Source of the DNA: a virus
DNA: 44,062 bases
IMG/VR virus record: IMGVR_UViG_3300045988_030948
Span: 1 to 44,062 of that record
Strand: one strand, 5' to 3'
The notes under the pieces are model-generated. The model was not told where the DNA came from, did not search any database, and saw only the letters and a program-made list of their open reading frames with translations. Both the position numbers and the translations under genes were made by a program. Positions 1 through 44,062 of the stretch are shown one piece after another. Position 1 is the stretch's first letter. The number at the start of each line of letters is the position of its first letter.

Positions 1-99
1 GATACACAAATGAAATTGTTTTGATATGGACGAAATGGATTATATCTATTTAGGCGACCGATTGACCCGCCCGGAATTGCGACGTATGCCGTGCCGGGC
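1..99. repeat. terminal direct repeat, copy A (identical to 43964..44062)
   Basis: The first 99 nt (gatacacaaatgaaattg...gtgccgggc) recur base for base as the last 99 nt of the window. Bases 1-24 are the 3' end (DTQMKLF*) of CDS 43790..43987. Confidence 0.95.
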
Positions 100-223
100 G
101 GTTCGTCGTTTGAATGGCAAATGTATTCGGGGGCGTAACGGTAATATGTTAGTTGAATTTCCCGGAGTGGGTAAAGTTGTTGTTTTGGGTCGATTATTGC
201 GAAAACTCAAAAATAAAAGATAA
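26..223 (+). CDS. hypothetical small basic protein (65 aa)
   Basis: ORF from the track. Its ATG follows directly after the TGA stop of the preceding gene across the circular junction (tgATGg at 43985-43990). It ends in KNKR just before promoter P1. No domain recognised. Confidence 0.55.
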   Translation: MDEMDYIYLGDRLTRPELRRMPCRAVRRLNGKCIRGRNGNMLVEFPGVGKVVVLGRLLRKLKNKR

Positions 224-227
224 AAGT

Positions 228-258
228 TTTGGTAATTAAAATAATTCCCGTATTTTTG
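228..258 (+). promoter_or_regulatory. Bacteroidota-type promoter P1 (-33 TTTG, -7 TAttTTTG)
   Basis: TTTG at 228-231 and TATTTTTG at 251-258, with an exact 19-nt spacer. About 80% similar to the cassette at 9457-9487. An A-rich tract (aaaaataaaagataa) lies upstream. Confidence 0.75.
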
Positions 259-277
259 TGGCATGAAATAACACCGA

Positions 278-293
278 CCGGGCGGGTTCCCGG
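278..293 (+). promoter_or_regulatory. leader stem-loop downstream of P1 (CCGGG-CGGGTT-CCCGG)
   Basis: 5-bp GC stem with a 6-nt loop, about 20 nt after the -7 box. The same stem and loop sequence occurs at 5738-5753. Confidence 0.6.
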
Positions 294-309
294 AACAAAA
301 AAACAAAAT

Positions 310-510
310 ATGGCAACTGAAAATACAAAAACAGATGAATTTGGAGCCGTTCGCCACGCAATGAGCATGAACGATTTACGGGATTTATACAAGCGGTTGG
401 AAAACTTTATTGCAGATTGTACCCGCAATGAGGTTGACAACAACCGGGACGCCATAAACGGCGTTTTGACGTTGATACATAAACGAATGTTAGATTTACA
501 AAATAAGTAG
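310..510 (+). CDS. hypothetical protein (66 aa)
   Basis: The track ORF is 229..510. I prefer the internal ATG at 310 (MATENTKTDEF...) because codons 1-27 of the long form overlap promoter P1 and the leader hairpin. Confidence 0.6.
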   Translation: MATENTKTDEFGAVRHAMSMNDLRDLYKRLENFIADCTRNEVDNNRDAINGVLTLIHKRMLDLQNK

Positions 511-515
511 TAACC

Positions 516-533
516 GCCGGGGGAAACCCCGGC
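516..533 (+). terminator. intergenic GC hairpin with GAAA tetraloop
   Basis: GCCGGGG-GAAA-CCCCGGC, a 7-bp stem. An identical 21-nt copy lies at 36735-36755. No U-tract follows, so it may be a terminator, a processing site or a stabiliser. Confidence 0.5.
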
Positions 534-550
534 ATAAAAAGAGCGATAAA

Positions 551-1996: not shown

Positions 1997-2002
1997 TCAA
2001 CC

Positions 2003-2023: not shown

Positions 2024-2040
2024 TTAATACAGCAAAAACA

Positions 2041-3201
2041 ATGGCATATACATTGAACGAAAATTTGAAACGTTGGGCGGAACAATACGAAACCGCCGAG
2101 TTTATCCAATCCGACCCGGTGCAATTCCCGCACCGTTACGATAGCCGGGTAAACATTGAGATAAGCGCATTTGTGACGGCGTGGATTGCGTGGGGTTCCC
2201 GCAAACAGATAATCAAAAAGGCGGATTTTATCGACCGGGAAATTTTCCACGGTGCGCCGTATCATTACATTGTCGGAACCGACACACAGGGAGCCGCCCC
2301 GGAATGGAAGCAATACAAAGGCAGTACCGAAAGTTTTTACCGAACGTTTACGTTTGGCGATTTCCACGACCTTTGCGCCCGGTTGTATGATGTGTACACG
2401 TCGGCGGAAAGCATGGAGGCGGCAATAAAGAAAACCCACGAAACAAACGGCGAAACCGCATTGTCAACATTGCAATCGTTGTTCGGTTCCGTTAATGGTA
2501 TCCCGGATTTTGAAACCCAATCAGCGTGTAAACGGTTGTGTCTATTTTTGCGTTGGATGTGTCGCAAGGGTTCCCCGGTTGATTTTGGATTGTGGACGGT
2601 ATGCGAACCCCGTAATTTGATTATCCCGTTGGATACACACGTACATAAACAGGCAATCCGGTTGGGGTTGACGACACGACGGACGTCGGATTTGCGCACC
2701 GCCATTGAGATAACCGACCGTTTCGCCGAGATATTCCCGGACGACCCGACCAAAGGGGATTTTGCATTGTTCGGTTATGGGGTTAATAATGGCAAAGTTT
2801 CCCCGGTTACAGAGGAACCCGAAAAAGAAAAAGAGCAACCAACCCCGGTTGCGGATTTGAGTATTGCGGACGTTCTGAAAATGCCGTTGTTCTTTGACAA
2901 TGTGAAAACCCAATTAATGAGCCTTTGGAACGACCGGGAAACCGTCCGCAAAAAAGCCGCAAAGGATAACCAACGATTGAAAGCGCACGTTATCGACCGT
3001 ATGCACAATGCCGGGGATTGGGAGCCGGGAAAATTCGTTGTTATTTTCGCAACAATATTGGATAAAGTGGCAACCGGGTATTCGTCAAACGAACGGGAAT
3101 TTATCCGGGCGGTTGGAATGACAGCGTTTAATATTACCATGCAAAAGTTAATCGACGATGAAAAAAAGAGAGATAACAGCGACGGGAACGATAAACAATA
3201 A
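2041..3201 (+). CDS. DUF2400/TIGR02757-family protein (HhH-GPD-like) with an extra C-terminal region
   Basis: 386 aa. Motifs DPVQFPHRY, KRLCLFLRWMCR, VDFGLW, IIPLDTHVHKQAIRLGL and DPTKGDFALFGYG match the family as I remember it. PLDTHV...RLGL resembles the Nth-type VDTHVxRVxxRLG helix. The last ~130 aa are unassigned. Confidence 0.75.
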   Translation: MAYTLNENLKRWAEQYETAEFIQSDPVQFPHRYDSRVNIEISAFVTAWIAWGSRKQIIKKADFIDREIFHGAPYHYIVGTDTQGAAPEWKQYKGSTESFYRTFTFGDFHDLCARLYDVYTSAESMEAAIKKTHETNGETALSTLQSLFGSVNGIPDFETQSACKRLCLFLRWMCRKGSPVDFGLWTVCEPRNLIIPLDTHVHKQAIRLGLTTRRTSDLRTAIEITDRFAEIFPDDPTKGDFALFGYGVNNGKVSPVTEEPEKEKEQPTPVADLSIADVLKMPLFFDNVKTQLMSLWNDRETVRKKAAKDNQRLKAHVIDRMHNAGDWEPGKFVVIFATILDKVATGYSSNEREFIRAVGMTAFNITMQKLIDDEKKRDNSDGNDKQ

Positions 3202-3589: not shown

Positions 3590-3591
3590 GT

Positions 3592-7875: not shown

Positions 7876-8733
7876 ATGTGTATGGGAGCGATAAACGGAC
7901 GGGTTATTTATAGCCCAAAGGGTAAAGCCGGGGAATATGCCGAGAATGCCGCCAACTTTTACGTTGGTTGTTCAAACGATTGTACGTACTGTTATTTGCG
8001 CAAAGGTCGTGGCGCAAAAGTGTTGGGAGGCAATCGCCCGGAGTTGAAAAAGACGTTGCGGGAATACCCGTATGCGTTGGATATATTCACGAACGAATTA
8101 TTGAAGCATAAGGACGAATTGCAGAAAACCGGGTTGTTCTTTTCATTCACGACCGACCCGTTGTTGCCGGAAACGCAAAGGTTGACCCGCCAAGCGGTCG
8201 GCGTTTGCCAACGTAACGGCGTCCCGGTTAAGATATTGAGCAAATGCGCCGAGGGGATAAACGTATTTATCGACTTTGCCGAGGCGTCCGAGGGTTGGGA
8301 CGTGTCCCGCATTGCCATTGGTTCGACGTTGACCGGGTGCGACGAATTAGAACCCAACGCAAGCCCAAACAAGATGCGTATAAACGCATTGGCACGGGCG
8401 AAACGCCACGGGTTCCGCACCTTTGCAAGCGTGGAGCCAATCCCGCCGGGTATGTTTGACCGGGCGTTTGCCGTAATTGCTTTGTCGTATCCGTTCGTTG
8501 ACCTTTTCAAAATCGGATTGCAAAGCGGTTGCAGATATACCAAACGGGATACGTTGGCATTCTATCAAACCGTAACGGAATATTGGGAGGCGCACCCAAA
8601 GAGTACGCCCCGAATATATTGGAAAGATAGTTTTGTAAAGGCGTCCGGGATTGAACGGGAATTGTTGCCCGTCCATTGCGTCCCAGCAAATTGGGATTTG
8701 TTTAACGAAAACAGGAACGAAAATGCAGTTTAA
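7876..8733 (+). CDS. radical SAM protein, SplB/COG1533 (DNA repair photolyase)-like
   Basis: CX3CX2C cluster in NFYVGCSNDCTYCYLRKG, followed by SFTTDPLLPE (compare TDPYQP in COG1533 proteins). Confidence 0.75.
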   Translation: MCMGAINGRVIYSPKGKAGEYAENAANFYVGCSNDCTYCYLRKGRGAKVLGGNRPELKKTLREYPYALDIFTNELLKHKDELQKTGLFFSFTTDPLLPETQRLTRQAVGVCQRNGVPVKILSKCAEGINVFIDFAEASEGWDVSRIAIGSTLTGCDELEPNASPNKMRINALARAKRHGFRTFASVEPIPPGMFDRAFAVIALSYPFVDLFKIGLQSGCRYTKRDTLAFYQTVTEYWEAHPKSTPRIYWKDSFVKASGIERELLPVHCVPANWDLFNENRNENAV

Positions 8734-19045: not shown

Positions 19046-20143
19046 ATGTCATTAGTAGCAACAAGATTGCAGAATTGGCGAGTACAAAACCCGGAGTTAG
19101 ACCGTAATATGACCCGCCCGTGTGAGTATGGAGCATTGGACTTTTTCATTGAGCAAACCAACGCCCCGTCCTCAATCATTAATCCCAATTTGAGGGATAA
19201 AGCGTTTGCAAGTATCGGTAACACGGTACAAGTTCCCGTTATCAATTACGACGAAAACGTACAGGTAAGCAATGTACGTTCGTGCGTTATTGCGGACAAT
19301 GAAAATACGTCCGCATTGGTAACGCTTGTTTGGGCGACGTATTCCATTGGCTTTACAATGGTTCCGGCGGCGTACATGAACAACGAAATTTCGTATGAAC
19401 ACGACTTTTTGCGTAAAATGGAAAAGACGTGCCGTGCGTTGGCAAACACTTTGGACGCCGGGGCGGTTGCCGCTTTGGAGGCGAACAAAACGCAAGTGTT
19501 TGAAACGTTGTTGAATTACACGCAGACCGGAAACGTTATACAGGTTCCACAACAAATGGCGACCGAAATATTGGGCGATATTAACCCGATTATGCGTGCC
19601 AACTGTTACCCGGAATATATTCACCTTATCGGTAACGCCGGGGTTGATAGCCTTATTCGTAAACTTGCGCAACACGGAATTTACAACGACGTTAACAAGC
19701 GCATGGAGTACGACAACAAGGTTATCCACTACACGAACAACGTTACCGACGAAAGCGGTAAAATGGGAACCATGTTTGCCGTATCGGACGGAAACGTTGG
19801 TATCTTAACCCGTGTTGACCGTGAGGCATTGCGCCGCACCCGTGCGAATTTCCACGAATGGGACGTTGTACGTTTGCCGTACATTGATTTGCCCGTTGGG
19901 TCGCACTATTACACCGCAGTTGGCGACCAATCCGCAATCATGGGAGCCGCAACCGAAGATTTGACGTGCGCCGTTAAGGAGTATTTCGGATTTTCCGTTG
20001 ACGTGGCGTATATGGTTGCTTACAATAGCAACCCGACCACGATTGCCAACCCGATTATCAAAGCGGAAATTGAGGCACGCGACCCGAACCAACCGTTAGG
20101 GATGCCCGTTTACGTAGTTAATCCCCCGACAACAACACCGTAA
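19046..20143 (+). CDS. major capsid protein (putative)
   Basis: 365 aa. Follows the scaffold gene and is followed by a strong terminator. The call rests on size and position. Confidence 0.65.
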   Translation: MSLVATRLQNWRVQNPELDRNMTRPCEYGALDFFIEQTNAPSSIINPNLRDKAFASIGNTVQVPVINYDENVQVSNVRSCVIADNENTSALVTLVWATYSIGFTMVPAAYMNNEISYEHDFLRKMEKTCRALANTLDAGAVAALEANKTQVFETLLNYTQTGNVIQVPQQMATEILGDINPIMRANCYPEYIHLIGNAGVDSLIRKLAQHGIYNDVNKRMEYDNKVIHYTNNVTDESGKMGTMFAVSDGNVGILTRVDREALRRTRANFHEWDVVRLPYIDLPVGSHYYTAVGDQSAIMGAATEDLTCAVKEYFGFSVDVAYMVAYNSNPTTIANPIIKAEIEARDPNQPLGMPVYVVNPPTTTP

Positions 20144-30912: not shown

Positions 30913-33450
30913 ATGGGAACTTACGAAGTATTAAAACATGCTATTTCCGATGTTATAAAAACAAATGGAAATCAAGAAATTACGGGACAATTGACGCAAA
31001 ATGTATTAGTTGCAATTGTAAACGCATTGGGTAATAATGCGTTATTTGCCGGAATAGCGCAAACAAATACAGTTCCGGGAACGCCTGACGGTAATGTGTT
31101 TTATTTAGCAGCAACAAAGGGCATTTATACAAATTTTAATGCTTATGAGGTTACGGATAAACTAACTATTTTTAATAATAAAACAGGTAATTGGGTTGCC
31201 TCTGAAATTGATGTTGTAATTACGTCGGCATTGGATGATGTTAAAAATAACATCTATGTATATGATTATGCAGCCTTAATAAGTTTGTCGCAAGAATCCG
31301 GCGCATTAATAGAAACGGGAATTGTAGACCCAACACCAACGGGATATTATGTTAGAAAATACGATATATCCGGTTTGTCAAATATTGCAGTAACCGGACG
31401 GTCGGGATTAGGCGGATATTGTTTGCTATGTTTTTATAACTCAAACAATGAGTTTATAAGCGCACAATATATAGGAACGCAAACAAATTATTCTCAAATG
31501 GTTATATCCGTTCCAAGTGGAGTACAATTTATAAAAATATCCGGTAATGGGTCGTATTTACCCGCTTGTTATTCCGTTCAATCGCAATTAGCTTTTTACA
31601 CAAAAACAGAAATTCCGACTGTTGTAGCTAATTTAACAACACAAAAAGCCGATAAAACAGATATATATAATATTACGTCAAGCAACACGCAATTATCTTT
31701 AGATAGCGTTCAAGAAAATTACGCATTAAAATCAAATGGTAATGTAGAAGCAAATACAGGATGGTTTATAAATAAATATATAACTACAAATAAAACATCT
31801 GTATTGGTAACAGGTCGTTCGGGTGCATCTTCTTTCTGTTTGGCTTGTGCATTTGACGCCAATAACAATGTATTACAAGCCTTTCAGGTTGGAATGAGTA
31901 CTAATTATACTAAATTAGTAATCAATCTACCAATTGGAACCGCTTATGTAAAAGTTTGCGGAAATACAACAACTATGCCAAATGCGTTTGAAACTCAATA
32001 CACATTAAAATTTTACACAAAAGAGGAATCGGACGAAAAATATGCAACAAAAGAAGAGATTGCAGATAAAGCAGAAAGAAGCGATATATATATAAATGAA
32101 CCACAAATTATTGAGGGATTAACAGTTGTGCAAGGTTATTATCCATTGGCGAGTACGGGAGTTATTATAGCTAATTCGCAATGGTCGTATATTGAATATA
32201 ATATTCAACCAGATGATGTTTTATTTGCAACGGGTTTTGTTCGTCCAAGTGCAACGGCATTAGCCGTTTACAAAGATGCAAACGACGCATATATTGGTAA
32301 TCAATTTGTCGGAGCCGGAACAAATACAAATTACGATAAACAATTATTGACTATTCCCGCAAATGCAGCAAAAGTATTAATAACAGGTTCTTCAAACACA
32401 GAACCACAAACGCAAAATCGCCCTTTATTGTACAAAGGAGTAGAACAATTGGCATTTTATCAAAAAGATGAAACGTTAAGTACCGAGGAAATAGAACAAA
32501 AAATTGCCGAAACAACGCCTAATTATTGGAATCAAAAAAAAATATGGTGGTGCGGAACTTCTATTCCGGCGGGCGGTTATCCTCAATTAGTCGGTCAAAT
32601 GCTAAATTGTACCGTAAATAATCGTGCGCAAGGTTCATCCGGTTGTCGTCGTTCAACATTAAGTGGAGATTTTACGGGTATGCAATGGCAAAATATGGCA
32701 TATTCATTAAGTCAAACAGCCGAGGAAAAGGAATATATTATTGCTAATTGGGCTACAATACAGCCTATATTAATTAGCGGTGCGCCTACTACATTAAGCA
32801 CCTCGGAACAAACATTGATACGTAGTTGCACATTTGAACAAAGATTGTTGCCGTATATCAATGAATCAGATTTATTTGTTTATGACCACGGACACAATGA
32901 TTGGAAATATAATAAACCGTCAAATTTTGGAGGTGGTTCAGATATTGGCGTATTACCAACAGTTGAAAACATACAATCGGGATTATTGGCGGAAGATACA
33001 TATATGACGGCTAATAATAATGCGAAATTAGTTGAGTTATTTGGCGATTTATCCAAAATACCCAATCTTAATAATTGGATTGCCTCAATTAATCGTAATT
33101 GTTTTATTGGTGCAACTAATTTTATTATGATGATTATTTTGAAAAACAAACCGCATGGACGTATTGCAATGGTATCAAATAACCGTCTTAGTAAACAAGG
33201 ATTAATTGAGGCACAATTGTTAAATTCGGAAAATTGGTTTATACCAATCGCAAAGGTTTATGAATATTTAATGTATTCAAATTTTGTAATACCCGGAACG
33301 TCAAACTATTGGGGCGATGCAAGGGCAAACGATTTGACGGTTTTCGACTTGTATAATAAAGACAGAGTACACCCAAGTTCAGATACAACGGGCGATGCAA
33401 ATAGACTTTATGCGGGTATATTATCGGAATTTATTAAAAAAATAAGATAA
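30913..33450 (+). CDS. tail fibre / receptor-binding protein with three tandem ~140-aa domains and a C-terminal SGNH (GDSL-like) esterase domain
   Basis: 845 aa. The repeats are aa 116-252, 253-393 and 394-530, each ending in xFYxKxE and xDIY. SGNH blocks are WWCGTSIPAGG (I), DHGHNDW (III) and DRVHPS (V). The gene is AT-rich relative to the genome. Confidence 0.75.
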   Translation: MGTYEVLKHAISDVIKTNGNQEITGQLTQNVLVAIVNALGNNALFAGIAQTNTVPGTPDGNVFYLAATKGIYTNFNAYEVTDKLTIFNNKTGNWVASEIDVVITSALDDVKNNIYVYDYAALISLSQESGALIETGIVDPTPTGYYVRKYDISGLSNIAVTGRSGLGGYCLLCFYNSNNEFISAQYIGTQTNYSQMVISVPSGVQFIKISGNGSYLPACYSVQSQLAFYTKTEIPTVVANLTTQKADKTDIYNITSSNTQLSLDSVQENYALKSNGNVEANTGWFINKYITTNKTSVLVTGRSGASSFCLACAFDANNNVLQAFQVGMSTNYTKLVINLPIGTAYVKVCGNTTTMPNAFETQYTLKFYTKEESDEKYATKEEIADKAERSDIYINEPQIIEGLTVVQGYYPLASTGVIIANSQWSYIEYNIQPDDVLFATGFVRPSATALAVYKDANDAYIGNQFVGAGTNTNYDKQLLTIPANAAKVLITGSSNTEPQTQNRPLLYKGVEQLAFYQKDETLSTEEIEQKIAETTPNYWNQKKIWWCGTSIPAGGYPQLVGQMLNCTVNNRAQGSSGCRRSTLSGDFTGMQWQNMAYSLSQTAEEKEYIIANWATIQPILISGAPTTLSTSEQTLIRSCTFEQRLLPYINESDLFVYDHGHNDWKYNKPSNFGGGSDIGVLPTVENIQSGLLAEDTYMTANNNAKLVELFGDLSKIPNLNNWIASINRNCFIGATNFIMMIILKNKPHGRIAMVSNNRLSKQGLIEAQLLNSENWFIPIAKVYEYLMYSNFVIPGTSNYWGDARANDLTVFDLYNKDRVHPSSDTTGDANRLYAGILSEFIKKIR

Positions 33451-35100: not shown

Positions 35101-35114
35101 CTATCTTTGCAATC

Positions 35115-35175
35115 AAACGGGGATAGGTTGGAGTAGCTACCAACCAAAAGGGTAAGCCAACAGCCCGCCCCGTTT
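35115..35175 (+). other. 61-nt three-way-junction RNA/DNA structure with a trailing T-rich tract
   Basis: The outer stem pairs AAACGGGG with CCCCGTTT (8 bp). It encloses GGTTGG-agtagcta-CCAACC and GGGT-aagccaaca-GCCC. It is followed by tttctcttttgtt. A TAtcTTTG box lies at 35101-35108. Confidence 0.45.
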
Positions 35176-35205
35176 CTCTTTTGTTGGCGTATTAATGTTG
35201 GTAAT

Positions 35206-35766
35206 ATGGAAATTTGGAAAGATTTAACCGGGTATATAGGAATATACCAAGTTAGTAACAACGGGCGTATAAAATCATTATCCCGTAAAATAGTGAGAAA
35301 GAACGGGCAATTTGCCAAAGTTAAAGAAACGATATTAAAACCCGGAACCGACCGTTACGGTTATTCTTTTGTTGTATTATGCAATGATAGGGTAAAGAGA
35401 ACAACGGCAATTCATAGATTAGTTGCGGCGGCTTTCATTCCTAACCCGGACAATTTGCCGGAAATAGACCATATCGACGGCGACCGAGCCAATAACCATG
35501 CGACTAATTTACGTTGGTGTACCCGCAAACAAAATTCCAATAACCCAATATCAATTGAGCGTTACCGAAAAGCCGGAATAATTCAAAAGCCATATAAACA
35601 ACTGCAAATTCCGGTTCAGCAATTAAAGGACGGTTTTTTGATTGGTTCCTATTCAAGTATAAGAGAGGCGGAACGAGCAACCGGAATAGCGCATACAAGT
35701 ATAAGCCGAGTAATACGGGGGACATTAAACACGGCGGGCGGCTATAAATGGAAATATAAGGAGTAA
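35206..35766 (+). CDS. HNH homing endonuclease (NUMOD4 + HNH_3 + C-terminal HTH)
   Basis: EIWKDLTGYIGIYQVSNNGRIKS (NUMOD4), IDHIDGDRANNHATNLRWCTRKQN (HNH) and IREAERATGIAHTSISRVI (IENR/NUMOD1-like). Free-standing, lying between the lysis block and P3. Confidence 0.9.
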   Translation: MEIWKDLTGYIGIYQVSNNGRIKSLSRKIVRKNGQFAKVKETILKPGTDRYGYSFVVLCNDRVKRTTAIHRLVAAAFIPNPDNLPEIDHIDGDRANNHATNLRWCTRKQNSNNPISIERYRKAGIIQKPYKQLQIPVQQLKDGFLIGSYSSIREAERATGIAHTSISRVIRGTLNTAGGYKWKYKE

Positions 35767-39193: not shown

Positions 39194-40533
39194 GAGCGAA
39201 CAAAAAGAAACCGGAAAACCCGGTACAAAAGACGGTCGAAAGTTTGGGAGCCGTTCCCGCCGACCAATTCCCGGAAATTACCGAGGAACAACAACAAATA
39301 ATCCCCCCGTTTGAAGCGGTCGAGGTTGAGCAACCAACCGGAATATTTGAGATATTGCCGGGCATGACGGTTGAGGAAATGACGGCTATGTTTTTTGATG
39401 AAAAAACGTTGATTGAACCCCCGTATAAGGTTTGGCAATTGAATAGTAAGGGACACCGCTATTATTACCGATACGACGACAACGGGAACCCGGAGTTTTT
39501 CCCGTCGGTTACAACGATATTGTCCCAAACGTTACCCAAAGCCCCGCACTTAATACAATGGATTGCCAACAAAGGCATTGAGGAAGCGGAACGATATAAA
39601 GGCGAACGGGCGGCGTATGGTACGTTTATGCACGCCGCATTTGAGGAATTATTAATTAACCGGGCTTATGATTTGGACGGGTTAAAAGGCAAACTAAAAG
39701 AATATATTGAGGTTTACCGATTGCCGGACGACTTTATTTATTACGCCGACGATTTGAAAAAGGACGTATTGGCGTTTGCTCAATTCGTATTAGATTACGA
39801 CGTTCGCCCGTTGGCGGTTGAAATTGCGTTAGTGCATCCATATTATAAGTATGCCGGAATGATTGATTGCCCGTGTACCATGTTGGCAAAGATAGGCGGC
39901 GACGAACGTATTAACGCAATCGTCGATTTTAAGAGCGGGCGCAAAGGTTTTTACGAGGAAAGCGAGATACAATTAGGAATGTACCGGGATATGTGGAACG
40001 TCAATTTTGAGCAATTCCCCGTTACACGTATTTTCAATTTCAGCCCGAAAGATTGGCGCAAACGTCCGTCGTACAATCTGAAAGAACAAACAGATAGCCC
40101 CAATATTCGGAAAATCCCGTATCTATTGGAAATTGCGGCTATTGAGGACGAAAAGAAAGATAATACGTTTACGTCGGTTAATGGTATGGTATTGTTAGAC
40201 AATGCCCCGGATTTAACGCAAAACGTAATATCCTTATCGTTGGCGGAATTGATTAAAACGAAAGCCCCAAAGGAGGCGACCCCGGACGAAAACACGGACG
40301 CCGCCGAGAAAGTCAAGGCGGATGCACCGGAACCGGAAAAGGAGCCAAAGAAAACAACCATTGTTAAACGTGCGTCCAAAAAGGCAAAGGAGCCGGAAAA
40401 GAAAGCCACCACGGGCAAAACGACCGCAAAGCGGGGTAATACCACGGAAAAGAAAGTAAAGCCCGCAAATGAGCCTAAAAAGCCCAAAAATGAGAGTAGG
40501 AAAAAGATGTTGAACGACGACCCCGAAATTTGA
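39190..40533 (+). CDS. PD-(D/E)XK (RecB/Cas4-like) exonuclease with Lys-rich C-terminal tail
   Basis: GTFMHAAFEE, YAGMIDCP, IVDFKSG and EIQLGMY give the D...(D/E)xK...QxxxY order. The last ~100 aa are rich in K, P, E and A. Confidence 0.7.
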   Translation: MRANKKKPENPVQKTVESLGAVPADQFPEITEEQQQIIPPFEAVEVEQPTGIFEILPGMTVEEMTAMFFDEKTLIEPPYKVWQLNSKGHRYYYRYDDNGNPEFFPSVTTILSQTLPKAPHLIQWIANKGIEEAERYKGERAAYGTFMHAAFEELLINRAYDLDGLKGKLKEYIEVYRLPDDFIYYADDLKKDVLAFAQFVLDYDVRPLAVEIALVHPYYKYAGMIDCPCTMLAKIGGDERINAIVDFKSGRKGFYEESEIQLGMYRDMWNVNFEQFPVTRIFNFSPKDWRKRPSYNLKEQTDSPNIRKIPYLLEIAAIEDEKKDNTFTSVNGMVLLDNAPDLTQNVISLSLAELIKTKAPKEATPDENTDAAEKVKADAPEPEKEPKKTTIVKRASKKAKEPEKKATTGKTTAKRGNTTEKKVKPANEPKKPKNESRKKMLNDDPEI

Positions 40534-40540
40534 TTGAGAT

Positions 40541-41272
40541 ATGAAAGGAAGAATAAAACGACCGGAGGCGCAACAATCCCGTTTAATTTTGCCCCGTGTC
40601 GGTCAAATAAAAATCGGTATGAAAAACGCAAACGGTTATCCGCAAAGTGTTGATTACTTCATACCAACGGGAAAGTATGCCGGGTTATTTACACAGGCAT
40701 ACGGCGAAAAGCCGCAAACAATACAAATTGTTTTCCCGGACGACGACCCGGCAAAAGTATGTAACGAGCGTTACGAATACCGGGACGACGACGGGCGATT
40801 GATTGCGGCGGGCGATGGCGACACTTTCCAAGTATGGGACGGAAAGAAATACGAAACGTTGACAACGGAGAAATACCCAAACTTAATGCAGTCGATAACC
40901 AAGCGTTACCCGAATAAAAAGAGCCGCCAACCCGATTGCGACGGTTGGGAGGTTACATTAACGCTAAACTTTATTGTCCCTTTGGTTCGTGGGGTTGCCG
41001 GGGTTTGGCAATTCGCAACAAAGGGTACGGCGTCCACAATCCCGCAAATTCGGGAAACGTTTGACGGTATGTTGGCGGAACGTGGGTTTTGTAAGGGAGT
41101 GATTTTTGATTTGAATGTACAATTTGCGACAACCCAAAAGCCGGGCGACCGTTCCCGTTTTCCGGTTGTTTCGTTGGTTCCCAATGAGAGTGCCGACAAC
41201 GTATTGAAAGTACGTAAGGCATGGGAACCCGTTAAACAATTGGAGGGCGGCGACAATGGAACGGAAAATTGA
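40541..41272 (+). CDS. hypothetical protein; candidate recombination partner of the upstream exonuclease
   Basis: 243 aa, starting LPRVGQIKIGMKNANGYPQSVDYFIP... No family that I can name. The function guess rests on position only. Confidence 0.35.
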   Translation: MKGRIKRPEAQQSRLILPRVGQIKIGMKNANGYPQSVDYFIPTGKYAGLFTQAYGEKPQTIQIVFPDDDPAKVCNERYEYRDDDGRLIAAGDGDTFQVWDGKKYETLTTEKYPNLMQSITKRYPNKKSRQPDCDGWEVTLTLNFIVPLVRGVAGVWQFATKGTASTIPQIRETFDGMLAERGFCKGVIFDLNVQFATTQKPGDRSRFPVVSLVPNESADNVLKVRKAWEPVKQLEGGDNGTEN

Positions 41273-41477
41273 CATTGAATTGAACGGTATTATTACGCTG
41301 ACTTATACAGACAATAATACAGGACGACGACAACAAACCAAGTTAAAAGCCGTTGAGCGTAAAAGTAACAGTTGCGAAAATTGTTTTTTGCAACAATATT
41401 CATGTTATCGTTTTTCTTGCAATGGTGCAAACCGGGCGGATAAAACGGATATTAAATTTTTGCAAAATGACAATTAG
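41256..41477 (+). CDS. hypothetical Cys-rich protein (73 aa)
   Basis: ORF overlapping both neighbours by 11-17 nt. Has CENC...C...C. Confidence 0.4.
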   Translation: MERKIDIELNGIITLTYTDNNTGRRQQTKLKAVERKSNSCENCFLQQYSCYRFSCNGANRADKTDIKFLQNDN

Positions 41478-42315
41478 AGATAGTAATTATATAACCATTT
41501 TAGCCCCAATGATTACCCGGTTAAAGTTGAAAGGTAACGAATTGTTGGTTTTCGCTTTGATACATGGGTTTAGTCAAGACGGGGAAAGCCGTTTTAAGGG
41601 GTCGTTGCGATACCTTATTGAGTGGACGGGATTAGATAAAACAACCGTTATAAAGTTGCTCAAATCGTTGGTTGAAAAACAGTATATTAACAAATTTGAG
41701 TACGAAAAAAATAAGGTTCGTTATTGTGAGTACACGACGAATTATTGGGCGGCTTTAGAGTGGTTGGAAAATTCCACCACCCCCCCGGTTGAAAAAAACA
41801 ACCACCCCGGTTGCGAAACACAACCACCCCCCCGGTTGGAAAATCCAACCACCGTGGTTGGAAAATCCGACCCTATATTAAATACTGATATAGATAACTC
41901 TTTTGGTATTGATAAGGATAAACCCGCCAACGAGGTTGCCGGGGATTTATTCCCGGACGAACAATTGGAGGTTCAGAACGATAAAAAAAGAACGTCGATA
42001 TTTCGCAATTCCGATGTTTACAAATTGGTTAAGTTTTCGCCCGACGGCAACAACGATTATTCCGAGTTTGAAAAACTGTTTGCGACGCCGGAATTTGAAC
42101 GGGTCGATTTGGTTTATTATTTCCATACGGTCGCCGATTGGTCGGAAACTAAGCAGGGAGTAAAGAGAACCCGGACGGGTTGGATTGCCACGGTACGCAA
42201 CTTTATTCGTGGCGATGTTGAGAAAAAGAAATTGCATTTGAAACCGGAATACCAAGCCCCGCAAAAACGATTGGACGTTGGCGGCGCAATGGATTTCCTT
42301 AATGACAATTATTGA
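41467..42315 (+). CDS. replication initiator / replisome organiser (N-terminal winged HTH)
   Basis: LKGNELLVFALIHGFSQDGESRFKGSLRYLIEWTGLDKTTVIKLLKSLVEKQYI is an HTH_36/DnaD-like wHTH. The gene contains the iteron array. I chose the internal ATG of track ORF 41353..42315. Confidence 0.7.
   Translation: MTIRDSNYITILAPMITRLKLKGNELLVFALIHGFSQDGESRFKGSLRYLIEWTGLDKTTVIKLLKSLVEKQYINKFEYEKNKVRYCEYTTNYWAALEWLENSTTPPVEKNNHPGCETQPPPRLENPTTVVGKSDPILNTDIDNSFGIDKDKPANEVAGDLFPDEQLEVQNDKKRTSIFRNSDVYKLVKFSPDGNNDYSEFEKLFATPEFERVDLVYYFHTVADWSETKQGVKRTRTGWIATVRNFIRGDVEKKKLHLKPEYQAPQKRLDVGGAMDFLNDNY
41761..41925. promoter_or_regulatory. candidate origin of replication: five iterons plus an adjacent AT-rich segment
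   Basis: GGTTG(G/a/c)(A/g)AAA cores start at 41762, 41787, 41809, 41834 and 41856 (spacings 25, 22, 25, 22 nt). Each is preceded by a CCACC/CAACC(C)n arm that forms an inverted repeat. An AT-rich stretch lies at 41871-41925. Confidence 0.7.
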
Positions 42316-42316
42316 T

Positions 42317-43249
42317 ATGGAAAATTTGCCGGAAAAAGTAAATATGCAGTCCGCAGCGTTGGCGATATACAACCCAACGCCCGGTACAAAAGCAATCGAC
42401 ATACGCCGACAAATGGTGCAATTACCGGAGGTTGCCAAATCGTTATCCGGGGTCGAAAAGTACATTTTTGCCGCCTCAACGAAAACGCAAATTGCCGAGA
42501 TTGACGACGGCACGTTGGTTGCCAAAACCGGGCAAATGTTCCGGTTTATTGCTTTGGACGTCGGGTATATAATCCCGACCAATACGGACGATTGGGCGTA
42601 CATTTGTACCCGGTTGTTGGATATACTCAAAAAATACTATTCGCAAATGACGTTGGCGGATATTAAGTTGGCATTTGAGTTGGCGACGACCGGGGAATTG
42701 GACGACTATTTGCCAAAAGACAGTCAAGGCAACCCGGATAAAAAGCATTACCAACAATTCAACGCCGATTATTTCGCAAAGATATTGAACGCATACAGGC
42801 GAAAGCAAAACGGGGTTATCAATAAAGCGTATAAGGCTTTGCCGGAACCGAAAAGGGAGTTGACCCCGGAGCAAAAAAGGTATTACCATAACGAAACGGT
42901 CGCCCGATATAGGGACGTATTTTTGCGGTACAAATATACCGGGCGTTTTGAATTGGGTATTGCTGACGGAATGTTTATATATGATTGGTTGCGGAAACAT
43001 GGGTTAGCCAACGAGATTGCCGGAACCGAGGACGACCGCAAACAGGCATACGCCCGGTATATGCAACGTGTCGCCCGTGGGTTCGTAAACAAATACGAAG
43101 CGTTCCACGTCCAAAAGAAAGGAACCGACGCACCGGAATTGGATTTTACGGCGTATGAGATAGCGAGGGACAAAGAGATAAAACGCACATTTGACCGTAT
43201 GATTGCGGACGAATTGCAGATTGAAAACTATTTAGATTTTTGGAAATGA
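42317..43249 (+). CDS. hypothetical protein downstream of the initiator (helicase-loader position)
   Basis: 311 aa. I chose the ATG 2 nt after the initiator stop. No Walker motif seen. The function guess rests on position only. Confidence 0.5.
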   Translation: MENLPEKVNMQSAALAIYNPTPGTKAIDIRRQMVQLPEVAKSLSGVEKYIFAASTKTQIAEIDDGTLVAKTGQMFRFIALDVGYIIPTNTDDWAYICTRLLDILKKYYSQMTLADIKLAFELATTGELDDYLPKDSQGNPDKKHYQQFNADYFAKILNAYRRKQNGVINKAYKALPEPKRELTPEQKRYYHNETVARYRDVFLRYKYTGRFELGIADGMFIYDWLRKHGLANEIAGTEDDRKQAYARYMQRVARGFVNKYEAFHVQKKGTDAPELDFTAYEIARDKEIKRTFDRMIADELQIENYLDFWK

Positions 43250-43782
43250 ACAAAATAACGATTGATTGTATTATTGGCATTGACCCCGGAAAAACCGGGG
43301 GAATTGCCGTTTGGCGTCCGAACCACAAAACCGAGGTTATCAAAATGCCGGGCGACCTTATGGAGTTGAAACAATGGTTTGAGTACATGAAAAGTATTTG
43401 CCGCCCTTTGGTTTTCGTCGAAAAGGTACAATTGCGCCCCGACGATGTAAACGATAATCCCGGCAAAGCGTTTCGGGTGCAAAAACTGTTATCCGAGTTT
43501 GAAAAACTGAAAACAATAATTGCCATGTGCGACGTACCGTTTGTTTTAGTACACCCCCAAAAATGGCAAAATGAATTGAAATTGCGGGTTAAAGGAGAGG
43601 AAAAACCGGAACGCAAAAAGCGATACCAAAGAGCCGCCGCCAATTATTACCCCGATATTAAGGCGACATTGTGGAATGCCGATGCGCTTATGATTTTGCA
43701 CTTTGGACGATATATTTTGCACAACAACCCCCGTTGGGTTTTGGAAAATTTGCCCGCACCAATGCACAACAGTTTGTTTTAA
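43240..43782 (+). CDS. ruvC: RuvC-like Holliday junction resolvase
   Basis: IIGIDPGKTGGIAVW (first catalytic Asp), VFVEKV (Glu) and NADALMILHFG (terminal Asp) are in the order of phage-type RuvC. Confidence 0.8.
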   Translation: MEMNKITIDCIIGIDPGKTGGIAVWRPNHKTEVIKMPGDLMELKQWFEYMKSICRPLVFVEKVQLRPDDVNDNPGKAFRVQKLLSEFEKLKTIIAMCDVPFVLVHPQKWQNELKLRVKGEEKPERKKRYQRAAANYYPDIKATLWNADALMILHFGRYILHNNPRWVLENLPAPMHNSLF

Positions 43783-43789
43783 TTGTAAT

Positions 43790-43987
43790 ATGGAGGCATA
43801 CGATAACAGACCCGCCGCCGAGATAACCGCAAAGGAATTGGCGGAAATGGTTAAACAGATGCGGCATAACCAACGACGTTCCAAACATAACCCAACCCCG
43901 GAAAAATTGGCGACGTTGGAACGTTGGGAAAAAGAGGTTGACGCCGTTGTTGCCGTGCTGACAGATACACAAATGAAATTGTTTTGA
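43790..43987 (+). CDS. hypothetical protein (65 aa)
   Basis: I chose the internal ATG of track ORF 43703..43987, just after the RuvC stop. Its last 24 nt lie in the terminal repeat. Confidence 0.5.
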   Translation: MEAYDNRPAAEITAKELAEMVKQMRHNQRRSKHNPTPEKLATLERWEKEVDAVVAVLTDTQMKLF

Positions 43988-44062
43988 TATGGACGAAATG
44001 GATTATATCTATTTAGGCGACCGATTGACCCGCCCGGAATTGCGACGTATGCCGTGCCGGGC
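43964..44062. repeat. terminal direct repeat, copy B (identical to 1..99)
   Basis: Exact 99-nt match to the start of the window. It contains the first 75 nt of the gene annotated at 26..223. Confidence 0.95.

What the first reader, a model, noticed from the sequence alone, without database searches (positions are those of the whole stretch)
1..44062. GATC, GGCC and CTAG appear completely absent; AGCT and CCWGG are nearly absent
I followed every gat, ggc and cta trinucleotide through the window, including block and line boundaries. I never found one followed by c, c or g respectively, so I count zero GATC, zero GGCC and zero CTAG in about 44 kb. At this mid-40s %GC composition each tetramer would be expected roughly 100-170 times. 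AGCT occurs only four times (31590, 31626, 32169, 35135), all in the AT-rich fibre gene or the structured element. CCWGG occurs once (CCTGG at 28825). Other 4-nt palindromes (CCGG, TCGA, GTAC, TGCA, ACGT, GCGC, CATG) are common, and CCGG is strikingly so. No methyltransferase gene is present. This pattern fits restriction-site avoidance against DpnII/MboI-type (GATC), HaeIII-type (GGCC), BfaI-type (CTAG), AluI-type (AGCT) and EcoRII-type (CCWGG) enzymes. Avoidance as such is well known, but complete purging of three tetramers over a whole genome is extreme. It also gives a testable fingerprint of the host R-M repertoire.
Basis: partly seen in the sequence, partly recalled or inferred. Interest (0 to 1): 0.7.

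Follow-up and report, generated by a model that had tools for sequence, protein, structure and literature searches.

The report
Phage genome purged of restriction sites
This is a complete gut-Bacteroidales phage genome from which selection has erased the target sites of dozens of bacterial restriction enzymes, so thoroughly that the amino-acid pair Gly-Pro is missing from its proteins; the strategy is well known, but this is an unusually extreme case.

Summary
The counts are exact: GATC 0, GGCC 0, CTAG 0, AGCT 4, CCWGG 1, at the stated positions.

Shuffles that keep every protein and every dinucleotide still expect GATC 38, GGCC 109, CGCG 144 and CCWGG 18. CTAG (3.4 expected) and much of the AGCT deficit (14 expected) follow from a separate, strand-specific purge of the CT dinucleotide.

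The purge is far wider than reported:
- GGNCC, CYCGRG, RGCGCY, CCCGGG, RCCGGY, GTCTC and about 30 more Type II sites are absent or nearly so.
- At least 33 Type I-like bipartite sites are purged.
- Gly-Pro (always GGNCC) and Trp-Pro (always GGCC) are absent from the proteome.

No methyltransferase gene is present.

The pattern is shared by six isolates on Alistipes, Parabacteroides, Bacteroides and Elizabethkingia and by 80 metagenomic relatives. It therefore records a host-clade R-M pool, not one host. It matches published Bacteroides fragilis-group methylomes. GATC and several hexamers return in the Elizabethkingia phage.

Verdict: real restriction-site avoidance, a known strategy in an unusually extreme, multi-layered form. 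The strand-specific CT purge remains unexplained.

The parts
1..44062 (.). Whole phage genome (56 + strand ORFs, 95% coding). It lacks GATC, GGCC, CTAG, GGNCC, CYCGRG, RGCGCY, GDGCHC, CCCGGG, GTCTC/GAGAC, CGTACG, CCWWGG, GCCGGC, GAATTC and others, and at least 33 Type I-like bipartite sites.
1..99 (+). Terminal direct repeat, identical to 43964-44062. It is the overlap of a circularly assembled genome or a terminal redundancy. The unique length is 43,963 nt.
43964..44062 (+). Second copy of the 99-nt terminal direct repeat.
20078..20081 (.). The only CGCG in the genome (codons GCA CGC GAC, in the major capsid gene 19046-20143). The same site with identical flanks is in Alistipes phage AS73P1.
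28825..28829 (.). The only CCWGG (CCTGG; Pro-Gly codons CCT GGT), in the divergent tail gene 27259-30060.
30913..33450 (+). Tail-fibre / receptor-binding gene. It is the least 'cleaned' part of the genome (GC 34.5%, CT odds 0.47 against about 0.2 elsewhere). Only its N-terminus has relatives. It holds 3 of the 4 AGCT sites (31590, 31626, 32169). It is probably a recently acquired host-range module.
35135..35138 (.). Fourth AGCT, at the centre of an intergenic inverted repeat (GGTTGGAGTAGCTACCAACC), just upstream of an HNH homing-endonuclease gene.
35206..35766 (+). I-HmuI-like HNH homing endonuclease (NUMOD4, HNH_3 and NUMOD1 domains). It is a mobile insert.
2041..3201 (+). DUF2400 / TIGR02757-family protein of unknown function. 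It is not a methyltransferase and is absent from the Elizabethkingia relative.
7876..8733 (+). Radical-SAM protein (weak PA0069-like match) of unknown function. It is not a recognised DNA-modification enzyme and is absent from the Elizabethkingia relative.

Best explanation
The window is a complete genome of a virulent-type siphovirus of the PDS1 / AS73P1 group, which infects gut Bacteroidales. It carries no methyltransferase and no recognisable anti-restriction gene. It escapes restriction passively, because selection has removed the recognition sites of the R-M systems circulating in its host clade.

Shown: most sites are removed by context-dependent synonymous codon choice. Where no synonymous escape exists (Gly-Pro = GGNCC, Trp-Pro = GGCC), the amino-acid pair itself has been replaced.

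Shown: the purge covers four clearly targeted tetramers (GATC, GGCC, CGCG, AGCT), CTAG, CCWGG/GGWCC, about 30 further Type II palindromes, some Type IIS words (GTCTC, GAGTC, GGTGA, ACTGG) and dozens of Type I-like bipartite sites.

Shown: the same pattern holds across phages on four host genera and shifts in the Elizabethkingia phage. Inferred: it is therefore the cumulative imprint of a clade-level pan-immune R-M pool, maintained by continuing selection.

A separate strand-specific depletion of the CT dinucleotide accounts for most of the CTAG and part of the AGCT deficit. Its cause is not settled.
For: 1. Statistics. Protein- and dinucleotide-preserving shuffles expect GATC 38, GGCC 109, CGCG 144 and CCWGG 18, against 0, 0, 1 and 1 observed. 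They expect GGNCC 74, CYCGRG 34, RGCGCY 25, CCCGGG 22, GTCTC 21 and CGTACG 21, all observed 0, and RCCGGY 67 against 3.

2. Palindrome specificity. 12 of 32 palindromic hexamers are absent against 41 of 1592 non-palindromic ones.

3. Codon context. GAT|C 0 of 92, GGC|C 0 of 101, G|ATC 0 of 177, G|GCC 0 of 332, C|GCG 0 of 295.

4. Protein level.
- Gly-Pro is 0 against 37 expected and is the most depleted of all dipeptides. Trp-Pro is 0 against 7. Pro-Gly is normal.
- In 79 metagenomic relatives Gly-Pro is 49 against 1026 and Trp-Pro 0 against 183.
- The portal motif GPGS of distant homologues reads GAGS here.

5. No methyltransferase or anti-restriction hit in Pfam, PHROGs or NCBIfam. The small methyltransferase and the Lar-like gene of relative BKO1-3 have no homologue in the window.

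6. Lineage. Six isolates and 1.30 Mb of IMG/VR relatives show the same purge, with GATC at 2.4, GGCC 1.9 and CGCG 2.3 per 44 kb.

7. Natural experiments.
- Elizabethkingia phage TCUEAP2 regained GATC (139), RCCGGY, CYCGRG, CCCGGG and TCCGGA, and additionally lost GACGTC and TACGTA.
- B40-8 carries a Dam methylase gene and keeps GATC at 126 against 125 expected.
- The more distantly related P. distasonis phage PD691P3 purges only CGCG, CCWGG, GGWCC and GAATTC.
- CGCG and CCWGG are methylated in all P. distasonis isolates (PMC10333322).

8. Host methylomes. 24 of 34 palindromic B. fragilis-group motifs are at or below 0.2 of expectation, against 14 of 120 asymmetric ones.

9. Type I sites.
- The published bipartite motifs occur 1412 times at the true spacer, against 2076 for the same half-sites at shifted spacers. 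T7 gives a ratio of 1.01.
- A de novo scan finds 33 purged 3+3 motifs in the window and 0 in T7.
- 13 of those 33 match published motifs, against 3% expected by chance.
- The 33 motifs are at 14% of control in the independent relatives.
Against: - The host of this genome is unknown. The distal fibre has no close relative, so no cognate endonuclease is demonstrated.
- Methylation motifs are not proof of restriction. The methylome paper says most Type II methylases there look orphan.
- Several methylated palindromes are not avoided: CCGG, CCNGG, GCSGC, CGWCG, CGSCG, GRCGYC and VTCGAB.
- CTAG, and partly AGCT, are explained by dinucleotide composition alone.
- The motif list was transcribed by hand from a truncated supplement and covers only five species.
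- Some zero counts among hexamers have expectations of only 5-10 and are individually weak.
Confidence: 0.88

Rival explanations
1. The missing words are a by-product of amino-acid content, codon usage or base and dinucleotide composition, with no selection on the words themselves.
For: CTAG is expected only 3.4 times and AGCT 14 times once proteins and dinucleotides are fixed. CT and AG are globally depleted. The CCGG excess is largely compositional, at 352 expected against 407 observed.
Against: With proteins and all dinucleotides fixed, GATC, GGCC, CGCG, CCWGG, GGNCC, CYCGRG and RCCGGY are still expected 18-144 times and are observed 0-3 times. Codon choice flips only in site-forming contexts. 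The effect is specific to palindromes. Spacer-shifted controls for the bipartite sites share all composition and sit at 1.00-1.02.
Confidence: 0.03
2. The pattern is the fingerprint of the R-M repertoire of the single current host strain.
For: Host-specific fingerprints do exist in this system. PD691P3 lacks just the motifs methylated in every P. distasonis isolate. The window and AS73P1 share small sub-lineage differences: TTTAAA 4/0 and GCWGC 6/0, with GTTAAC not purged.
Against: Nearly the same purge is seen in phages isolated on Alistipes, Parabacteroides, B. uniformis and B. koreensis and in 80 metagenomic relatives. It covers more than 70 specificities, whereas single isolates in the methylome tables carry only a handful of motifs each.
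Confidence: 0.07
3. The CT/AG depletion, and with it the CTAG and AGCT absence, is caused by a context-dependent, strand-asymmetric mutation bias rather than by selection. An example would be deamination on the non-template or lagging strand.
For: - The depletion is equal in all three codon phases and in non-coding DNA, and is stronger on the + strand: CT 0.23 against AG 0.55.
- TT, AA and CC are enriched.
- Other Bacteroidota siphophages deplete other dinucleotides: TC at 0.25 in Croceibacter phage P2559S, and CT 0.32 with TA 0.48 in Flavobacterium phage FPSV-D22.
Against: - In 23 aligned relatives the CT-forming allele is the minor one 89 times against 36. That is the most skewed of the 16 dinucleotides (odds ratio 2.35 against composition-matched dinucleotides, p 2e-5). 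AG is next. Neutral mutation bias at equilibrium predicts 50:50.
- NCT codons are about 5% of each four-fold family while other T-ending codons are common. C-to-T mutation at codon position 2 cannot produce that synonymously.
- A exceeds T on the + strand, the opposite of what C-to-T loading would give.
- CTNNAG, CTNAG and CTCC are depleted beyond the dinucleotide expectation.
Confidence: 0.15
4. The phage protects itself mainly by DNA modification, and site loss is secondary. The modification would come from its own unknown enzymes, such as the radical-SAM, DUF2400, ASCH and MazG-like proteins.
For: Uncharacterised radical-SAM, TIGR02757/DUF2400, ASCH and MazG-like genes are conserved in the Bacteroidales members. 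Several CG-containing host motifs (CCGG, CGWCG, CGSCG, GCSGC) are not avoided.
Against: No methyltransferase or known hypermodification enzyme is detected. A modified genome would not need to lose more than 70 site types. The Elizabethkingia relative lacks the radical-SAM and DUF2400 genes yet keeps most of the purge.
Confidence: 0.05
5. Palindromes are avoided for reasons unrelated to restriction. Candidates are hairpin or cruciform instability, or interference with host Dam/MutH- or Vsr-type repair.
For: Short palindromes are generally under-represented in many genomes. CTAG rarity is widespread in bacteria. Both statements rest on general knowledge, not on tests here.
Against: Many palindromes are at or above expectation: AACGTT, CAATTG, TTGCAA, TGCGCA, AATATT, CCGG and ACGT. 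The purged set changes with host clade. Non-palindromic Type IIS words and bipartite Type I motifs are purged too. The purged set overlaps experimentally methylated host motifs.
Confidence: 0.03

Closest known systems
Restriction-site avoidance in virulent dsDNA phages, as surveyed by Rusinov et al. 2018 (PMC6286503) and classically by Sharp 1986 (the latter from my own knowledge)
   Same: Passive evasion by loss of orthodox Type II palindromic sites. It is strongest in non-temperate phages that lack a methylase. Complete or near-complete elimination is reported for about a tenth of viral genomes.
   Different: That survey found no avoidance of Type I or Type IIG sites and no systematic strand-asymmetric avoidance. 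Here, dozens of Type I-like bipartite sites are purged. 30% of the host clade's asymmetric motifs occur in one orientation only. More than 70 specificities are affected at once.
Staphylococcus phage K / Twort-like phages (no GATC, few GGNCC) and Bacillus phages lacking GGCC sites (recalled from my own knowledge, not checked here)
   Same: Total absence of one or two 4-5 bp host restriction sites over a whole genome that has no methylase.
   Different: Those cases involve one or two host enzymes (Sau3AI/Sau96I, BsuRI). Here five tetramers plus many longer sites are missing, across phages of several host genera. I know of no report of a proteome-level loss of Gly-Pro in those phages, and it was not tested here.
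Phage T7/T3: sparse EcoRII sites and single-orientation EcoP15I (CAGCAG) sites that escape Type III cleavage (Krüger and Bickle; Meisel et al. 1992; from my own knowledge; alluded to)
   Same: All genes lie on one strand, and asymmetric sites are tolerated in one orientation only. Single residual sites (1 CCWGG, 1 CGCG) could be refractory to two-site enzymes.
   Different: In T7 this concerns one motif. T7 shows 0-2% single-orientation words against 8-19% in this lineage. T7 also encodes Ocr, whereas no such gene was found here.
Broad-host-range IncP plasmids (RP4/RK2), depleted of many 6-bp Type II sites (Wilkins and colleagues; from my own knowledge), and plasmid R-M avoidance (Shaw et al. 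2023, PMC10359461, seen only in the listing)
   Same: Loss of many different restriction sites, interpreted as the footprint of a promiscuous lifestyle across hosts with different R-M systems.
   Different: Those are plasmids, not phages. The depletion there is partial, concerns hexamers, and shows no dinucleotide-level or dipeptide-level effect that I know of.
Dinucleotide suppression in eukaryotic viruses (CpG against ZAP, UpA against RNase L; papers listed)
   Same: A whole dinucleotide is suppressed genome-wide at synonymous and non-coding positions, apparently under selection from host immunity.
   Different: The domain of life and the dinucleotide (CT) differ. The sensor there reads RNA. 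No bacterial system that reads CT/CU is known, so this analogy is only a lead.

Membership tests
Restriction-site avoidance (passive anti-restriction) | Candidate sites are under-represented relative to nulls that keep composition, codon usage and protein sequence. | tested here: met
   GATC 0 against 38-95, GGCC 0 against 109-122, CGCG 1 against 144-152, CCWGG 1 against 18-26. One search gives about 40 further sites. CTAG alone is not separable from the dinucleotide bias (0 against 3.4).
Restriction-site avoidance (passive anti-restriction) | The avoided words have the form of R-M recognition sites (palindromes or bipartite motifs) rather than arbitrary words. | tested here: met
   12 of 32 palindromic hexamers are absent against 41 of 1592 non-palindromic ones (p 6e-11); bipartite sites are depleted only at the true spacer, with 33 de novo hits against 0 in T7.
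Restriction-site avoidance (passive anti-restriction) | The avoided sites correspond to R-M specificities present in the hosts. | tested here: inconclusive
   Met at clade level against published B. fragilis-group methylomes. GATC, CGCG, CCWGG, GGCC, GGNCC, CTAG, YGGCCR, RCCGGY, CCCGGG and TCCGGA are all methylated motifs there. 13 of 33 purged bipartite motifs match, against 3% by chance. However, the actual host is unknown, methylation does not prove an active endonuclease, and REBASE was not available.
Restriction-site avoidance (passive anti-restriction) | No self-protection by a phage methyltransferase for the avoided sites. | tested here: met
   No methyltransferase domain in Pfam, PHROGs or NCBIfam scans of the non-structural ORFs. 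No homologue of the BKO1-3 methylase. Converse control: B40-8 has a Dam gene and keeps GATC.
Restriction-site avoidance (passive anti-restriction) | The pattern tracks host range: sites reappear when selection is relaxed. | tested here: met
   the Elizabethkingia relative has GATC 139, RCCGGY 34, CYCGRG 16, CCCGGG 14 and TCCGGA 20, where the Bacteroidales phages have 0-4; other Bacteroidota phages have different fingerprints.
Restriction-site avoidance (passive anti-restriction) | The DNA is in fact resistant to the enzymes, and adding sites lowers plating efficiency on restricting hosts. | not testable with these tools
   Requires digests and engineered phages.
Type III-style evasion by single-orientation sites (T7 / EcoP15I) | Asymmetric host motifs are present in one orientation only. 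| tested here: met
   24 of 81 asymmetric B. fragilis-group motifs with at least 10 sites are unidirectional, against 8.7% of all asymmetric 5/6-mers (p 2e-7). The same motifs give 8% in B40-8 and 2% in T7. This test is not independent of the CT purge.
Type III-style evasion by single-orientation sites (T7 / EcoP15I) | The hosts carry orientation-dependent (Type III or ISP) enzymes with those motifs. | not tested
   The enzyme types behind the methylated asymmetric motifs were not resolved here.
DNA hypermodification or self-methylation as anti-restriction | The phage encodes base-modifying enzymes. | tested here: not met
   No methyltransferase, hydroxymethylase, glucosyltransferase or 7-deazaguanine genes were found. 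The radical-SAM and DUF2400 proteins remain of unknown function.

The most novel reading that the evidence does not exclude
Beyond ordinary site-by-site avoidance, this lineage may have evolved a generalised form of evasion that does not depend on individual specificities.

A selected, strand-specific purge of one dinucleotide (CT here, TC in a Croceibacter relative) would remove whole families of targets at once. One family is every CT...AG palindrome. The other is one orientation of the many ...AG-type Type IIG/III/BREX-like motifs of Bacteroidales.

On top of this come the erasure of dozens of Type I sites and of the Gly-Pro dipeptide.

The genome would then be a readable negative image of the host clade's pan-immune R-M repertoire. 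That image could be used to predict specificities that have not yet been characterised.
Probability: 0.3. Interest if true: 0.8.

Novelty: new variant of a known kind. Interest (0 to 1): 0.6.

Why it matters
Restriction avoidance itself is textbook. Three things here are not.

1. Clear, replicated avoidance of many Type I sites. A survey of phage genomes reported no such avoidance.
2. Avoidance strong enough to remove an amino-acid pair (Gly-Pro) from a whole proteome. That shows R-M pressure can shape protein sequence.
3. A selected, strand-specific dinucleotide purge with no known cause.

Practical consequences:
- Spacer-shifted controls make it possible to read Type I and Type II specificities of a host clade directly from phage genomes.
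- That is useful for predicting hosts of gut viral contigs.
- It could help in designing DNA that transforms recalcitrant Bacteroidales.
- It could help in choosing or engineering therapeutic gut phages with broad R-M immunity.

Tried and rejected
- **Half-site vocabulary.** I tested whether the trinucleotides used in host Type I half-sites are generally depleted. This is not supported (Spearman -0.14, p 0.43). The depletion is of specific half-site plus spacer combinations.
- **Dinucleotide usage in host motifs against phage dinucleotide odds.** The direction is right: AG/CT is over-used in contiguous host motifs (second only to AT), and CG is among the least used. It is not significant (rho -0.45, p 0.19, n = 10).
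- **Host inference from the tail fibre.** Only the N-terminal anchor has relatives. The distal part matches nothing informative.
- **Methylase or anti-restriction gene.** None was found. The BKO1-3 methylase and Lar-like genes have no homologue in the window.
- **Function of the DUF2400 and radical-SAM proteins.** There is no PDB sequence relative.
- **tRNA and Rfam scans.** Nothing was found.
- **The PDS1 paper.** It contains no statement on restriction sites. Literature searches found no prior report of Type I avoidance or of a dinucleotide purge in these phages.
- **Not used.** REBASE was not available. The genome and metagenome scans were not used, because host DNA could not be targeted from this window.

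Full report
**1. Observation**

- GATC 0, GGCC 0, CTAG 0.
- AGCT 4, at 31590, 31626, 32169 and 35135.
- CCWGG 1 (CCTGG at 28825).
- GC is 44.7%. A 99-nt terminal direct repeat leaves 43,963 unique bases.
- Base-composition expectations are 107-162 per tetramer.

It occurs once, at 20078, against a maximum-order Markov expectation of 196. CATG (53) and GCGC (91) are under-represented rather than common.

**2. Is it more than composition?**

I called 56 + strand ORFs, covering 95% of the sequence, and ran two shuffles. The first permutes synonymous codons and keeps proteins and codon usage. The second permutes third bases within classes, keeping the proteins and every dinucleotide count.

| Word | Observed | Expected, codon shuffle | Expected, dinucleotide-preserving shuffle |
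|---|---|---|---|
| GATC | 0 | 95 | 38 |
| GGCC | 0 | 122 | 109 |
| CGCG | 1 | 152 | 144 |
| CCWGG | 1 | 26 | 18 |
| AGCT | 4 | 46 | 14 |
| CTAG | 0 | 13 | 3.4 |

GATC, GGCC, CGCG and CCWGG are therefore purged beyond any compositional explanation (Poisson p from 3e-7 to 1e-60). AGCT is moderately depleted beyond composition (p 0.002). The absence of CTAG cannot be separated from a general depletion of CT and TAG (p 0.03). The 'striking' CCGG count (407) is mostly compositional (352 expected).

**3. The purge is much broader**

Under the dinucleotide-preserving shuffle:
- Absent: GGNCC (74 expected), YGGCCR (46), CYCGRG (34), RGCGCY (25), GDGCHC (22), CCCGGG (22), GTCTC/GAGAC (21), CGTACG (21), CCWWGG (18), GCCGGC (17), ACTGG/CCAGT (16), GGCGCC (15), GCCNNNNNGGC (14), GGTNACC, TTCGAA, GGTACC and GAATTC.
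- Nearly absent: RCCGGY 3 against 67, RCATGY 1 against 23, GGTGA 1 against 21, GTSAC 1 against 19, TCCGGA 1 against 15, TTTAAA 4 against 29.
- At expectation: GCNGC, ACNGT, GTNAC, CCGC, GACGC, AACGTT, CAATTG and AATATT.

Among hexamers that contain none of the purged tetramers and have an expectation of at least 5, 12 of 32 palindromes are absent, against 41 of 1592 non-palindromic pairs (p 6e-11).

**4. How the sites are removed**

Codon choice is context-dependent.
- Asp is GAT in 404 of 849 cases overall, but in 0 of 92 before a C-initial codon.
- GGC is never used before C (0 of 101).
- ATC (0 of 177) and GCC (0 of 332) are never used after a G-ending codon.
- GCG is never used after a C-ending codon (0 of 295).

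Two dipeptides cannot be encoded without a purged site. Gly-Pro is always GGNCC and Trp-Pro is always GGCC. Both are absent from the proteome, at 0 against 37 and 0 against 7 expected from residue frequencies. Gly-Pro is the single most depleted of all dipeptides (z -6.1), while Pro-Gly is normal at 48 against 37.

Phages that tolerate GGNCC have Gly-Pro at 0.3-0.5 of the product expectation (T7 10 of 30, BF503P1 12 of 23). Even against that baseline, zero is significant (p 4e-7).

In 79 metagenomic relatives, Gly-Pro is 49 against 1026 and Trp-Pro 0 against 183. Where distant homologues have Gly-Pro, the window has Gly-Ala, Ala-Pro, Gly-Ser and similar pairs. One example is the portal motif, which reads GPGS in homologues and GAGS here. 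Avoidance has therefore altered protein sequence.

**5. What the genome is**

The window is related to these isolates:
- Alistipes phage AS73P1, about 90% nucleotide identity over the structural half.
- Parabacteroides phages PDS1 and PD491P1.
- Bacteroides phages C1_85S2P (B. uniformis) and BKO1-3 (B. koreensis).
- More distantly, Elizabethkingia phage TCUEAP2.
- Structurally, the B40-8/B124-14 group.

All genes lie on one strand. No ORF carries a methyltransferase domain or a known anti-restriction function. The small methylase and the Lar-like gene annotated in BKO1-3 have no homologue here. There are no tRNAs and no Rfam families.

**6. Lineage-wide pattern and natural experiments**

All five Bacteroidales isolates show the same purge: GATC 0, GGCC 0, CTAG 0, CGCG 0-3, AGCT 0-8, CCWGG 0. 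So do 80 IMG/VR relatives totalling 1.30 Mb, with GATC at 2.4, GGCC 1.9, CTAG 0.7, CGCG 2.3, AGCT 5.0 and CCWGG 1.0 per 44 kb. The pattern is therefore not the imprint of one host strain.

It is nevertheless host-dependent.
- The Elizabethkingia phage has regained GATC (139), RCCGGY (34), CYCGRG (16), CCCGGG (14), GCCGGC (13), TCCGGA (20), CCWWGG (15) and GANTC (38). It has additionally lost GACGTC and TACGTA. It keeps the GGCC, CGCG, GGWCC, CCWGG, RGCGCY and GTCTC purges.
- GATC has fully recovered at that divergence. The continued absence of the other sites therefore implies continuing selection rather than inertia (inference).
- B40-8 encodes a Dam-type methylase and keeps GATC at expectation, 126 against 125.
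- PD691P3, a P. distasonis phage from another branch of the B40-8-like group, purges only CGCG (0 against 86), CCWGG (0 against 43), GGWCC (1 against 43) and GAATTC (0 against 20).

**7. Link to real host R-M repertoires**

Tisza et al. 2023 (PMC10333322) determined the methylomes of 268 Bacteroides fragilis-group isolates.
- GATC and CTGCAG are methylated in all five species.
- CGCG and CCWGG are methylated in every P. distasonis isolate. That matches most of the PD691P3 fingerprint (which also lacks GGWCC and GAATTC).
- GGCC, GGNCC, CTAG, YGGCCR, RCCGGY, TCCGGA, CCCGGG, SAGCTS/VAGCTB, GAATTC, GTATAC, CATATG, CTTAAG, CTCGAG and others are also on the list.

I transcribed 197 contiguous and 177 bipartite motifs from the (truncated) supplement. 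Of 34 palindromic motifs with an expectation of at least 5, 24 are at or below 0.2 of expectation and 16 are absent. Of 120 asymmetric motifs, 14 are at or below 0.2 (p 5e-11). CCGG, CCNGG, GCSGC, CGWCG, CGSCG, GRCGYC and VTCGAB are not avoided.

**8. Type I sites**

For the 177 bipartite motifs I compared the true spacer with the same half-sites at spacers shifted by -3, +3, +6, +9 and +12. This control keeps half-site frequency and codon phase.

| Genome | Sites at true spacer / shifted-spacer control |
|---|---|
| Window | 1412 / 2076 = 0.68 |
| Five Bacteroidales relatives | 0.67-0.69 |
| B40-8 and B124-14 | 0.68 and 0.70 |
| BK649P1 | 0.73 |
| TCUEAP2 | 0.74 |
| PD691P3 | 0.91 |
| Croceibacter P2559S | 0.97 |
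| BF503P1 (carries hydroxymethyl-dCMP genes) | 0.97 |
| T7 | 1.01 |

In the window 92 motifs lie below control and 26 above (sign test p 8e-10). The shifted spacers themselves give 1.00-1.02.

Seventeen motifs with controls of 8.6-28 have no site at all. Examples are GAYN6TCG 0 against 28, GGAN6RTC 0 against 25, GAAYN5RTC 0 against 23 and CCAN6TCC 0 against 14.

An unbiased scan of all 3+3 motifs with spacers of 4-9 asked for a control of at least 14 and an observed count of at most 7% of it. It gives 33 hits in the window, 41 in PDS1, 28 in TCUEAP2, 35 in P2559S, 5 in B40-8, and 0 in T7, PD691P3 and BF503P1.

Thirteen of the 33 window hits match a published methylated motif, against 3.1% of random motifs (p 9e-12). 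The 33 motifs occur at 14% of control (2507 against 17,409) in the independent 1.29 Mb of IMG/VR relatives.

Rusinov et al. 2018 reported no avoidance of Type I or Type IIG sites in phages generally. This lineage is an exception.

**9. The CT dinucleotide**

On the + strand the odds ratio of CT is 0.23. AG is 0.55 and TC is 0.56, while TT is 1.66, CG 1.63 and CC 1.35.
- The CT depletion is the same in all three codon phases (0.27, 0.23, 0.20) and in non-coding DNA (0.31). It is therefore not codon usage.
- It is lineage-wide at 0.19-0.29 and absent from B40-8 and T7.
- It explains why CTAG and AGCT have low expectations.
- Through compensating codons it also explains the CG, CC and CCGG excess (inference).
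- A Croceibacter relative instead depletes TC (0.25). A Flavobacterium phage depletes CT (0.32), AG (0.48) and TA (0.48).

In an alignment of 23 relatives, the allele that creates CT is the minor one in 89 of 125 polymorphisms. That is the most skewed of the 16 dinucleotides (odds ratio 2.35 against composition-matched dinucleotides, p 2e-5). AG is next, and CG-creating alleles are mostly the major ones. Neutral mutation bias at equilibrium predicts 50:50, so a fixation bias (selection) is acting.

Why the + strand is hit harder is unresolved.
- Consistent with evasion of orientation-dependent enzymes, 30% of the host clade's asymmetric motifs occur in one orientation only. The figure is 8.7% for all asymmetric 5/6-mers, 8% for the same motifs in B40-8 and 2% in T7. 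This is not independent of the CT purge itself.
- AG/CT is over-used in contiguous host motifs (ratio 1.42, second only to AT), but the correlation across dinucleotides is not significant.

**10. Residual sites**

- Three of the four AGCT sites lie in the fibre gene 30913-33450. That gene is compositionally the least adapted part of the genome (GC 34.5%, CT odds 0.47) and has no close relatives beyond its N-terminus. A recently imported host-range module would look like this (inference).
- The fourth AGCT is at the centre of an intergenic inverted repeat upstream of an HNH homing endonuclease.
- The single CGCG is shared with AS73P1 at the homologous capsid position.
- Single sites may be tolerated because some enzymes, such as EcoRII, need two sites (my own knowledge).

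**11. Verdict**

The reading as restriction-site avoidance is supported, with the corrections above. The phenomenon is of a known kind.

Its extent here goes beyond what the surveys describe:
- about 40 Type II/IIS specificities;
- at least 33 Type I-like sites;
- loss of a dipeptide from the proteome;
- a selected, strand-specific dinucleotide purge;
- conservation across phages of several host genera.

No paper held in the searchable library reports it for these phages. The main open points are the unknown host, the lack of direct evidence for active endonucleases, and the cause of the CT asymmetry.

Noticed in passing
There is 1 site against 144-196 expected. The one site is conserved in Alistipes phage AS73P1. 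CGCG is methylated in all P. distasonis isolates in the published methylomes.
   Followed up: yes
window 1-44062, + strand: Strand-specific purge of the CT dinucleotide: odds 0.23 for CT against 0.55 for AG. It is equal in all codon phases and in non-coding DNA, is lineage-wide, and polymorphism data indicate selection. The cause is unknown.
   Followed up: partly
all + strand ORFs of the window: No Gly-Pro (0 against 37 expected) and no Trp-Pro (0 against 7) dipeptide in the whole proteome, because GGN-CCN and TGG-CCN always form GGNCC or GGCC. Homologues' Gly-Pro is replaced by Gly-Ala, Ala-Pro and similar pairs.
   Followed up: yes
window 1-44062: Dozens of Type I-like bipartite sites are absent only at the correct spacer length, for example GAYN6TCG 0 against 28 and CCAN6TCC 0 against 14. 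This was replicated in 1.29 Mb of relatives and is absent in T7.
   Followed up: yes
window - strand, e.g. 496-1398, 34545-35318, 39951-40631: Many long ORFs appear on the non-coding strand. These are likely artefacts. CT and TC depletion on the + strand makes CTA and TCA rare, so TAG and TGA stops are rare on the - strand.
   Followed up: no
window 1-99 and 43964-44062: Exact 99-nt terminal direct repeat. This is typical of a circularly closed assembly or a terminal redundancy, so the window is a complete genome.
   Followed up: partly
window 2041-3201, 7876-8733, 8723-9235, 10349-11383: Conserved genes of unknown role: DUF2400/TIGR02757, radical SAM (PA0069-like), ASCH-like and MazG-like. 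The first two are missing in the Elizabethkingia relative. There are no PDB sequence relatives. A DNA-repair or modification role is not excluded.
   Followed up: partly
window 35100-35766: I-HmuI-like HNH homing endonuclease, preceded by a Bacteroides-type TAnnTTTG promoter-like motif (TATCTTTG) and an inverted repeat that holds one of the four AGCT sites. Relatives carry 0-3 such endonucleases at different places.
   Followed up: partly
L090 (Croceibacter phage P2559S), L094 (Flavobacterium phage FPSV-D22): Other Bacteroidota siphophages have their own extreme fingerprints. P2559S has TC odds of 0.25, CATG 0, CCGG 0, CGCG 0, GGCC 1, GANTC 1, AGCT 300 and 35 purged bipartite motifs. FPSV-D22 has CT 0.32, TA 0.48, CATG 1, CGCG 0 and CTAG 0.
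   Followed up: partly
L091 (Parabacteroides phage PD691P3): This phage purges only CGCG, CCWGG, GGWCC and GAATTC. The first two are the motifs methylated in every P. distasonis isolate. This is a clean positive control showing that a phage fingerprint can read its host species' R-M systems.
   Followed up: yes
L007 (B40-8) 19275-19757; L095 (BF503P1) 40980-44539: These show alternative strategies in the same structural supergroup. B40-8 carries a Dam methylase and keeps GATC at expectation. BF503P1 carries deoxycytidylate hydroxymethyltransferase genes and shows no Type I avoidance (ratio 0.97).
   Followed up: partly
L063 (IMGVR_UViG_3300006463_000320): This is the one IMG/VR relative with many 'forbidden' sites (GATC 25, GGCC 23) and CT odds of 0.46. 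It is probably chimeric or carries a large foreign segment. It was excluded from the pooled tests.
   Followed up: no
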